Assembly: GCA_964433705.1 (NCBI GenBank)
Contig: CAYSSH010000001.1
Location: forward strand, 1-48,310
Length of the DNA stretch: 48,310 nt
Direction of reading: 5' to 3'
From: an uncultured Candidatus Saccharibacteria bacterium
Lineage (GTDB): Bacteria; Patescibacteriota; Saccharimonadia; Saccharimonadales; Saccharimonadaceae
The number at the start of each line of letters is the position of its first letter. Position 1 is the stretch's first letter. This document shows positions 27,580 through 29,993 of the stretch, piece after piece. A program made the translations under genes and the position numbers. The notes beneath the pieces were generated by a model. The model ran no database searches. It saw only the letters and a list, made by a program, of their open reading frames with translations, and was not told where the DNA came from.

Positions 27580-29937
27580 ATGCCAAAAGTCATACATTTA
27601 TCAAATCTAATCAAAACAGTCAGAACTTATTCATTTCTTCATCTTCGCAGTCACTCATCTTTGTCCACTACCTCCACGTCCCTCTCTCGTGGAGGAGTGG
27701 CCGGTGGTATTGTAGGGCTTCTTGCTCTCACACTTACTCCTGCCACTATATATAATATATATAACGTTAGCTCTGCCTTTGCTGCAGACGCCTCAGATAC
27801 GAAATCCCTAGACTTCACCGTCATCAGCGAAAAATCTATTGACATCACTCTTTCTTCTAGTTCCGTTGCTCTCTCCATCCAACCTACCGCTGAAGGTAAG
27901 TTCGGACGTAGCTCTCTTGATGTTAATGTATCTACCAATAACACTACCGGCTATAATTTAACTATGCAGGCCAGTACCGATACTCTTACTAGAAGCACTC
28001 AGGTTAACAACACTACCTATACCATTACCCCCCTCTCTCAATCTATCACTTGTACCTCCGAAACCGCTTCTTCTTGTACTGGTTGGACTAGCTCCTATGC
28101 CAATAACCAATGGGGTTATCGTATAGATAATGGTACAACCTATACTTCCATGACTGGTGCCGTTTCTAACGCTGCTACTATTAAAACCACCTCTGCTTCC
28201 GCCAATACCAGTAGCACTACCGTCTATTTTGGCGCTAAACTAGACAATGCCATTCCCGTAGGCTCATACGAAGGAGTAACCTTAACTTTCATGGCCGTCA
28301 CTAATCCTATCGCCGCAATTAACGATATGACTTATCTCCAGGAATTTTATGGCCTAGATTCAGCCACCAAGAATAATATTTCCTCGTCCATGACTACCAA
28401 TGTCCCATATAAACTAGTAGATTCTCGTGACGGCACTATCTATAATATCGCCAAACTCGCAGACGGCAACATCTGGTTCCTAGATAACCTCCGCCTGGAC
28501 CTCACGAACAATACCGTTAAGACTAACCTCACTCCCACTACTACTAACGCTACAGATACCGCCCTTAACTGCCTTAAAAACGGTAATTGCTCAAGCCCAT
28601 ATTCTCTAACTGCAGTAAGTGGCACATGGGGTGACAATACTTTTACAGATGCACGTATCAATACTACCTACGCCACCACCATAAACTCAGACTCTTCCAA
28701 AAACTACGGTGACGGCTCTCACATGTATGGCGTTTATTATAACTTTTGTGCAGCCTCAGCTGGTTCATATTGCTACGCTGGGGGAGCATCTCCAGATGGC
28801 GTGAATGCTTCTGAAGATATCTGCCCCGCTGGTTGGCATATGCCTACCGCAGATTCATGGGGCGTCCTTAGGAACACTATTAACAGCAATACCGCTTCTA
28901 ACTCTGCTTCTATCCAAGCTAGGTTGTCCTTGCCACTCTCTGGCTACTTCAACAATGGGTCCGCGAACGGTCAGGGTTCGGGCGGCTTCTGGTGGTCTTC
29001 TACGTGGGGCGCTAGCTACGACGCTATGTCCTACTTCAACGCGACTGCTACGCTTACGAAGATGGACGTCATCTACCGTCGCTACCTCGGTTACTCGATG
29101 CGGTGTCTGATGCCTGGCCCGAAGACGATAGATGACGTTTCCACTCTCCAAGATTTTGCTTTGCTTTCCGCGGATGATAAACAGTTCTTTCTTGATAGTA
29201 TGACTGAGAACCAAGTCTACGAAAAGACCGATTCCCGCGATGGGCAGACCTACAAAATCGCCAAACTCGCAGACGGCAACATCTGGTTCCTAGATAACCT
29301 CCGCCTAGACCTCACGAAATCTTCCGTAAAATATACCATTTCTCCCGCTGACACGAACGCTAGCCAAACCGCCATTAACTGCCTAACGGGCAGAACTACG
29401 GGCTGTGCTTCACCATATACTACTGCTGCAGTAAGTGGCACATGGAGCAATGCTTATACAGGCGCACGTATCAATACTACCTATGCCACCACCATAGACT
29501 CAGACTCTTCCAAAAACTACGGTAACGGCTCCCATATATATGGCGTATATTATAACTACTGCGCCGCTTCAGCTGGTTCCTATTGCTACGCTTCTGGAGC
29601 AGGTACCGGTAACGCTTCCGAAGACATCTGCCCCGCTGGTTGGCGTATGCCTACCGGAGACGCTGATGGCGAATGGGGCGCCCTAGACTCGCTTATAAAC
29701 AACCGCACTGCTTCTGACTCCGCTTCTATCCAGGCTAGGTTGTCCTTGCCCCTCTCTGGCGGCTTCTACGATGGGTCGGCGAGCGAACAGGGTTTGGACG
29801 GCTACTGGTGGTCTTCTACGCGGAACTTTGGCGACCTCATGTACCGCTTCTACGCGGATACTACGAGTACGGATGCGACGAACAGCAACTTTCGCGACTA
29901 CGGTCTCTCGTTGCGCTGTCTGTTCTCGGCTTCGTAG
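27580..29937 (+). CDS. Secreted surface protein with two Fib_succ_major/FISUMP-like (CLec-fold) domains; probable DGR target
   Basis: Two copies of DSRDG..Y.IAKLADGNIWFLDNLRL...YGVYYN.CAASAG...DICPAGW.MPT...G.WWSST...G.S.RCL. Confidence 0.85.
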   Translation: MPKVIHLSNLIKTVRTYSFLHLRSHSSLSTTSTSLSRGGVAGGIVGLLALTLTPATIYNIYNVSSAFAADASDTKSLDFTVISEKSIDITLSSSSVALSIQPTAEGKFGRSSLDVNVSTNNTTGYNLTMQASTDTLTRSTQVNNTTYTITPLSQSITCTSETASSCTGWTSSYANNQWGYRIDNGTTYTSMTGAVSNAATIKTTSASANTSSTTVYFGAKLDNAIPVGSYEGVTLTFMAVTNPIAAINDMTYLQEFYGLDSATKNNISSSMTTNVPYKLVDSRDGTIYNIAKLADGNIWFLDNLRLDLTNNTVKTNLTPTTTNATDTALNCLKNGNCSSPYSLTAVSGTWGDNTFTDARINTTYATTINSDSSKNYGDGSHMYGVYYNFCAASAGSYCYAGGASPDGVNASEDICPAGWHMPTADSWGVLRNTINSNTASNSASIQARLSLPLSGYFNNGSANGQGSGGFWWSSTWGASYDAMSYFNATATLTKMDVIYRRYLGYSMRCLMPGPKTIDDVSTLQDFALLSADDKQFFLDSMTENQVYEKTDSRDGQTYKIAKLADGNIWFLDNLRLDLTKSSVKYTISPADTNASQTAINCLTGRTTGCASPYTTAAVSGTWSNAYTGARINTTYATTIDSDSSKNYGNGSHIYGVYYNYCAASAGSYCYASGAGTGNASEDICPAGWRMPTGDADGEWGALDSLINNRTASDSASIQARLSLPLSGGFYDGSASEQGLDGYWWSSTRNFGDLMYRFYADTTSTDATNSNFRDYGLSLRCLFSAS
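28939..29109 (+). repeat. Putative DGR variable region VR1 (internal domain)
   Basis: Differs from VR2 mostly at codon positions 1-2 of NNC/NNT codons. Confidence 0.65.
29755..29937 (+). repeat. Putative DGR variable region VR2 (3' end of gene)
   Basis: Same signature; at the gene 3' end and followed by a GC-rich tract with hairpins. Confidence 0.75.
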
Positions 29938-29993
29938 CCCCGTAGCGCCCGCGTCTTTACCGCGCTTCCTCGCGGTGCGTTCCCGGAGGGAGC
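29938..29993 (+). other. GC-rich tract with two hairpins (candidate IMH/homing stem-loops)
   Basis: ACCGCG-CTTCCT-CGCGGT (29959-29976) and GTTCCC-GGA-GGGAGC (29979-29993). Confidence 0.55.

What the first reader, a model, noticed from the sequence alone, without database searches (positions are those of the whole stretch)
27580..29993. Surface protein with two DGR-type variable regions and no RT or template repeat nearby (remote, possibly two-site target)
Seen: the gene has two duplicated domains whose scaffolds are near-identical in DNA (e.g. ATCGCCAAACTCGCAGACGGCAACATCTGGTTCCTAGATAACCTCCGCCT in both), but whose last ~57 codons (28939-29109 and 29755-29922) are hypervariable. By hand alignment about 28 of 33 differing codons keep the third base and change positions 1-2 (TAC/GGC, GGC/AAC, CGT/TTT, GTC/AAC, CTT/AGT), the reverse of neutral drift. 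Codons ending in A are almost absent and codon usage switches to ACG/GCG/TCG. Established: DGRs diversify CLec-fold targets, including Fib_succ_major-like domains, by A-to-N mutagenesis of AAY template codons, and are common in CPR. Inference: both regions derive from one template located elsewhere, so this is a trans-targeted host-binding adhesin with an internal as well as a terminal variable region.
Basis: partly seen in the sequence, partly recalled or inferred. Interest (0 to 1): 0.9.

Follow-up and report, generated by a model that had tools for sequence, protein, structure and literature searches.

The report
Remote DGR target, two variable regions
Both lectin-like domains of this predicted surface protein end in a stretch derived from one mutagenic template (a diversity-generating retroelement, DGR) found on another contig of the same genome, but the inner stretch lacks the usual targeting signal and is likely rewritten only rarely.

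Summary
Confirmed, with one qualification. The predicted template exists. Contig C30 carries an AAC-rich template repeat (TR), an intact DGR-type reverse transcriptase (RT), an accessory ORF and an adjacent target.

Both regions derive from this TR. VR1 differs at 31 of 55 template adenines and 9 of 129 other sites; VR2 at 28 of 55 and 5 of 129. The TR serves 7 variable regions on 6 contigs. It lies antisense and convergent to the RT, as in 51 of 55 relatives' cassettes.

Live two-site diversification is not shown. VR1 lacks the 3' homing homology that VR2 keeps, and it was unchanged in two samples; VR2 could not be tested. VR1 is still not a simple fossil: a sister gene with the same junction has a different VR1, and internal VRs in a relative were re-randomised at adenines after becoming internal.

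Most likely VR1 is refreshed rarely, by recombination from terminal targets; direct retrohoming is not excluded. Remote targets and internal VRs are both described in print. The scan noted similar cases in other genomes (e1-5211446, e1-2962954, e1-3022721).

The parts
27580..29937 (+). Target gene, 785 aa: N-terminal region plus two Fib_succ_major (CLec-like) domains
   Evidence: ORF; PF09603 E 8e-15, two stretches; TIGR02145 E 7e-26
27694..27750 (+). Hydrophobic segment (residues 39-57); likely signal or anchor (inferred)
   Evidence: Highest 19-residue hydropathy window, 1.72; no signal-peptide predictor was run
28318..29109 (+). Domain 1 (internal Fib_succ_major domain)
   Evidence: Alignment with paralogues; low confidence in the structure model
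28923..29109 (+). VR1, internal variable region derived from the TR at G000:C30:2711-2909; one extra codon; template homology ends just after the Cys codon
   Evidence: 31 of 55 template A changed, 9 of 129 non-A, 3-nt insertion; no 3' flank homology or hairpin
29110..29118 (+). Junction replacing the terminal residues and stop of a single-domain target; same position and length in the sister gene P0002
   Evidence: Alignments
29119..29934 (+). Domain 2 (terminal Fib_succ_major domain), predicted CLec/FGE-like fold
   Evidence: pLDDT mostly above 90; VIA-align Z 7.5 Lcl, 6.9 TvpA, 5.8 TaqVP, 5.2 Mtd
29739..29937 (+). VR2, terminal variable region derived from the same TR
   Evidence: 28 of 56 template A changed, 5 of 143 non-A to the stop, no indel
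29938..29990 (+). Non-coding 3' flank homologous to the TR 3' flank (IMH-like), with a weak 6-bp stem-loop
   Evidence: 65 of 79 identities from the Cys codon on; BLAST match to 29990; fold z -0.65, not significant

Best explanation
This gene is a remote target of a chromosomal DGR on another contig: both domain tails derive from one template by adenine-specific mutation, the terminal tail is likely rewritten by ordinary retrohoming at a low rate, and the internal tail is likely refreshed rarely and indirectly, by recombination with template-written paralogues. Shown: the template, the RT, the mutation pattern, 7 variable regions on 6 contigs, and loss of the 3' homology at VR1. Inferred: a separately transcribed antisense TR RNA is copied by the RT and the cDNA acts in trans; terminal targets with 3' homology take it up; homologous recombination among the paralogous domains then moves finished variable regions into internal positions. 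The product would be a two-headed surface binding protein whose heads change on different time scales.
For: TR origin. The adjacent target has 0 of 129 non-A mismatches, the remote terminal VRs 1, 5 (VR2), 5, 6 and 11, and VR1 9, which fits slower refresh away from the cassette. VR1 has no 3' flank homology and was spanned by single contigs with 0 differences in runs X1 and X3. In the sister gene cluster, VR1 is the same in 6 of 6 members and VR2 is switched in 1 of 5. VR1 did change after the fusion: it matches the sister gene at 29 of 53 residues, its flanks at 33 of 40 and 35 of 40. Its third codon positions match the TR at 53 of 56, whereas the nearest paralogous scaffold differs at 5 of 31 fourfold sites. 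Recombination is visible: scaffolds in relative G173 are mosaics whose nearest neighbour changes block by block. In cluster P0083/P0144 the internal VR is swapped together with 14 upstream scaffold changes, 11 of them to the residue of the terminal domain (counted by eye); a TR cannot supply those.
Against: No donor was found: VR1 differs from every other VR in the assembly at 28-39 of 55 adenine sites, though the assembly is 64% complete and donors change. VR1 is no more decayed than the terminal VR on C10. In G173, internal and remote terminal VRs do not differ in non-A mismatches (8 against 7, Mann-Whitney p 0.81). VR2 activity was not shown. A terminal-type VR allele was also static across three runs. 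Wholesale VR replacement appeared in only 2 of 20 clusters, once terminal and once internal.
Confidence: 0.52

Rival explanations
1. VR1 is a direct but low-rate retrohoming target. The cDNA pairs through the constant stretches of the VR itself, without the downstream homology or stem-loop, so one protein is diversified at two sites independently.
For: In G173, internal VRs sharing one downstream junction (5-11 of 90 nt differ) differ at 23-33 of 58 template adenines and 7-15 of 113 other sites. They keep template homology up to the stop position. None is a near copy of a terminal VR (at least 18 adenine-site differences). The stem-loop is not strictly required in reconstituted BPP-1 (PMC12875486, passages). 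One CLec1 target with two internal, apparently mutagenised VRs is on record (PMC5758913).
Against: VR1 homology ends before the IMH-like segment. There was no variation in X1 or X3 or in 6 sister-gene members. The only internal swap seen carried upstream scaffold changes.
Confidence: 0.32
2. VR1 is a fossil: a terminal target that became internal when a second domain was added, and has only drifted since.
For: No 3' homing homology; 9 non-A changes and a one-codon insertion; static in all near-identical copies seen.
Against: The sister gene with the same junction has a very different VR1 between conserved flanks. Synonymous sites still match the template. G173 internal VRs were re-randomised.
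Confidence: 0.14
3. Ordinary duplicated lectin domains under diversifying selection, with no retroelement involved.
For: The tails are no more divergent in DNA than the scaffolds.
Against: A non-coding AAC-rich template beside an RT explains the differences, with p 1e-12 or lower for each region.
Confidence: 0.02

Closest known systems
CLec2-class DGR targets (category 'd': DUF1566/DUF823/Fib_succ_major; Legionella LdtA), Wu et al. PMC5758913 (passages and part 5 of 8 read)
   Same: Fib_succ_major target, AAC-rich template, A-to-N changes at codon positions 1-2, in-frame indel next to AAC codons.
   Different: [quoted passage not shown] Here one TR serves 7 VRs on 6 contigs, and 8 internal VRs were found in one relative.
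Multi-target DGRs with remote targets (Treponema denticola, 7 non-adjacent targets per PMC5758913; remote targets cited to Paul et al. 2017 in PMC8144416; Paul et al. itself not held, not read)
   Same: One template acting in trans on dispersed paralogues.
   Different: Targets here include tandem-domain genes with internal VRs. The distance to the RT is known only to be at least about 18 kb.
Bordetella phage BPP-1 DGR (mtd, avd, TR, brt)
   Same: The RT's best PDB hit is 8ub7, E 1e-14 (that this entry is the BPP-1 RT is recalled). CLec-like fold, Mtd Z 5.2.
   Different: Order is target, accessory ORF, RT, then an antisense convergent TR. TR and adjacent VR share 79 of 79 bases of 3' flank including a hairpin. 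The 314-aa accessory ORF is not recognisably Avd. TR and RT on opposite strands are noted as possible (PMC5758913) and rare (PMC6602519).

Membership tests
DGR target (VR) | A template repeat in the genome from which the VR differs mainly at adenines | tested here: met
   VR1 31/55 A against 9/129 non-A; VR2 28/55 against 5/129
DGR | Intact DGR-type reverse transcriptase next to the template | tested here: met
   385 aa, no stops, YVDD motif, about 170 nt from the TR; best PDB hit 8ub7; no RT tree was built
DGR | Avd accessory protein | tested here: inconclusive
   A conserved 314-aa ORF precedes the RT; no Pfam or PDB match, single or as a 19-sequence profile. A likeness of its C-terminal part to Avd is recalled only
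DGR target (VR2, terminal) | IMH-like 3' homology to the template | tested here: met
   65 of 79 bases from the Cys codon on
DGR target (VR2, terminal) | GC-rich stem-loop after the IMH | tested here: inconclusive
   6-bp stem, z -0.65; lacks the extra hairpin that follows the adjacent target
DGR target (VR1, internal) | IMH-like 3' homology and stem-loop | tested here: not met
   8 of the 15 bases up to the stop position differ and there is no stem-loop
Active DGR target (VR1) | Standing variation at template adenines | tested here: not met
   0 differences in contigs spanning VR1 in X1 and X3, one study; contigs drop rare variants
Active DGR target (VR2) | Standing variation at template adenines | tested here: inconclusive
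   No listed contig spans VR2; switched in 1 of 5 sister-gene members
CLec2 / Fib_succ_major variable proteins | Fib_succ_major domain with a CLec-like fold that holds the VR | tested here: met
   predicted domain 2 matches CLec/FGE folds at modest Z 5-7.5, no Foldseek hit at E 0.001 or better
Host-binding adhesin | Surface display and ligand binding | not testable with these tools
   Hydrophobic N-terminal segment only

The most novel reading that the evidence does not exclude
In this Saccharibacteria genus, one antisense, separately transcribed template writes directly into internal variable regions that have no downstream homing signal. Tandem-domain surface proteins would then carry several independently diversified binding heads, and DGR retrohoming would need only the homology inside the variable region.
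Probability: 0.3. Interest if true: 0.72.

Novelty: new variant of a known kind. Interest (0 to 1): 0.52.

Why it matters
How DGR cDNA finds and enters its target, and whether the IMH and stem-loop are needed, is still open (PMC12875486, passages). This system offers a natural graded series under one template: an adjacent target, remote terminal targets with full or partial 3' homology, and an internal target with none. It also shows that the genus invests heavily in DGRs, with RT homologues in 117 of 201 genomes. These epibionts likely combine retrohoming and paralogue recombination to vary multi-headed surface proteins. DGR finders that look only near the RT would miss such targets.

Tried and rejected
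Misassembly of the antisense TR: rejected. 51 of 55 RT contigs from 47 relatives show the same layout, 3 have the TR on the RT strand, and 1 had no TR in range. These loci were picked by TR or RT likeness and kin are not independent.

The second RT on C13 as the source: rejected. Its best hits are anti-phage RT families, all below cut-off, and BLAST with both VRs found no template on C13.

The coverage hole over the 3' half of VR2 in all four runs: not used as evidence, because the scaffold has a hole at 29354-29435 as well.

Runs with a small share of words: not used as evidence of habitat.

Orthologues of the junction in metagenome contigs: none confirmed among 443 candidates. In genome contigs only 2 distant loci were found. 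The gene's own 90% cluster has 1 member.

Single-sequence fold failed (pLDDT 34). In the alignment-based model, domain 1 was low confidence and is not interpreted. Atlas look-ups gave no result.

The 47 of 79 score for the VR1 3' flank comes from heavy gapping and is treated as noise.

Literature searches listed no paper on DGRs of gut Saccharibacteria or on internal VRs in tandem Fib_succ_major proteins. The library lacks most subscription papers and Paul et al. 2017; supplements of PMC5758913 were not read and may list such cases.

Full report
Observation. The ORF at 27580-29937 (785 aa) has two Fib_succ_major domains. The scaffolds are only 72% identical, not near-identical. Named homologues are from Candidatus Saccharibacteria; the assembly is 506 kb in 36 contigs, 64% complete, 1% contaminated.

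The template and cassette. BLAST with both tails found six further copies on five other contigs. One, C30:2711-2909, is the template: 23 of 61 codons are AAC or AAT, and an in-frame stop lies just upstream. On the other strand lie a target end, a 314-aa ORF and a 385-aa RT with a YVDD motif; the RT's best solved relative is 8ub7 (E 1e-14). Against the template, adenine / non-adenine mismatches (of 55 / 129) are: adjacent target 25 / 0, C4 29 / 1, VR2 28 / 5, C28 30 / 5, C21 33 / 6, VR1 31 / 9 plus one inserted codon, C10 33 / 11. One template therefore explains 7 variable regions on 6 contigs. Domains on C14 and C8 do not fit it (33-54 non-A mismatches). The window holds no RT_1-type RT, so the target is at least about 18 kb from the cassette, provided C30 is binned correctly.

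Layout. The template is downstream of and antisense to the RT. Because template and adjacent target share a long identical 3' stretch (79 of 79 bases from the Cys codon), an assembly inversion was possible. Relatives exclude this: RT homologues occur in 117 of 201 genus genomes, and 51 of 55 RT contigs have the same convergent layout. A separate template transcript is inferred; the promoter scan gave only a weak site. The accessory ORF is conserved, but neither it nor a profile of 19 of 22 homologues matched Pfam or PDB.

Is VR1 live? Against: template homology stops just after the Cys codon, whereas VR2 keeps 65 of 79 bases of 3' homology; VR1 has no stem-loop. Single contigs span VR1 with 0 differences in X1 (467 nt, depth 14.6) and X3 (501 nt laid, depth 6.1), both from one study (4 of 18 listed runs laid per call, contigs only). 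In the closest two-domain relative (63% identity), VR1 is the same in 6 of 6 members and VR2 is replaced in 1 of 5. This is weak: a terminal-type allele was also unchanged across X1-X3, VR2 itself was not spanned, and among the 20 multi-member clusters examined wholesale replacement was seen twice, once terminal and once internal (my pattern missed some VRs in these clusters).

Is VR1 a fossil? Probably not. The sister gene shares the junction, yet VR1 matches at 29 of 53 residues between flanks matching at 33 of 40 and 35 of 40; VR2 gives 31 of 55. VR1 third positions match the template at 53 of 56, while paralogous scaffolds differ at 16% (nearest) to 30% (median) of fourfold sites. In relative G173, the fetched loci hold 8 internal and 8 terminal VRs. 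All 8 internal ones fit its template (5-12 non-A mismatches of about 112), as do 7 of 8 terminal ones (1-16; one has 41). Internal copies that share a junction (5-11 of 90 nt differ) differ at 23-33 of 58 template adenines and 7-15 of 113 other sites. They were thus re-randomised after becoming internal. In most other genomes checked, internal VR-like tails did not fit any template I had fetched (G016, G020, G025, G056, G160, G166, G225), and one in G052 did (12 of 106). So the pattern is not general, or those templates were not in my loci.

Route. Two routes can refresh an internal VR: direct cDNA entry, or recombination with a template-written paralogue. Recombination is demonstrably at work. 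G173 scaffolds are mosaics, and in cluster P0083/P0144 the internal VR changed together with upstream scaffold residues, mostly to the terminal-domain residue, while the terminal VR stayed the same. Direct entry is possible: no donor was found and the stem-loop is not strictly required in reconstituted BPP-1 (PMC12875486, passages). I give recombination 0.52, direct low-rate retrohoming 0.32 and a pure fossil 0.14.

Protein. Domain 2 folds with high confidence. Its best structural matches are CLec/FGE-type folds, including the DGR variable proteins TvpA (Z 6.9, rmsd 4.4, 154 aligned), TaqVP (5.8) and Mtd (5.2); these Z values are modest and Foldseek gave nothing significant. Surface location rests on one hydrophobic segment and the family description; host binding is inference.

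Comparison with print. PMC5758913 (passages and part 5 of 8) records internal VRs as exceptions (one CLec2 DGR, one CLec1 gene with three VRs), says CPR DGRs tend to have one target, and notes that TR and RT can be on different strands. PMC6602519 (passages) calls that rare. PMC4159848 (passages) lists Fib_succ_major targets. PMC8144416 (passages) cites Paul et al. 2017 for remote targets; that paper was not held. Every element is therefore known. The combination is what my eight searches did not find in print: a genus-wide antisense template, many dispersed targets, and internal VRs re-randomised within tandem-domain proteins. Verdict: a real remote DGR target with two template-derived regions, new variant of a known kind, interest 0.52.

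Noticed in passing
L003:2711-5654 (G000:C30): Full DGR cassette. TR and adjacent VR share an identical 3' flank including a 7-bp hairpin; a second hairpin at C30:5202-5218 follows only the VR.
   Followed up: yes
L003:4240-5181: 314-aa accessory ORF, conserved upstream of the RT across the genus, much longer than Avd as recalled, with no Pfam or PDB match.
   Followed up: partly
L008:1-70 and L003:5585-5654: The end of C12 overlaps the end of C30 by about 41 nt with one mismatch, so the adjacent target is probably C12 plus C30; a paralogue could also explain the overlap.
   Followed up: partly
L002 (G000:C13:1884-3386): Second RT, 501 aa, weak hits to Drt4, Drt3b and AbiA below cut-off; probably an anti-phage RT.
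   Followed up: partly
L121 (G077:C63:1700-3940): Five AAC-rich template-like repeats in a row that differ from one another; a possible template array.
   Followed up: no
L009 (G000:C14:7699-9639) and L010 (G000:C8:3-773): Further Fib_succ_major genes, one with two domains, whose tails do not match the C30 template; a second, unassembled or lost DGR is possible.
   Followed up: partly
Genus-wide: Many relatives hold dozens of candidate Fib_succ_major-like loci, some in open frames of 2000-3900 aa; several such genomes (for example G152, G085, G158, G253) were not listed among the RT matches.
   Followed up: no
L004 (G000:C10:3428-4957): Single-domain paralogue 80% identical in DNA to the first 1.5 kb of the window gene; likely close to the form from which the two-domain gene arose.
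   Followed up: partly
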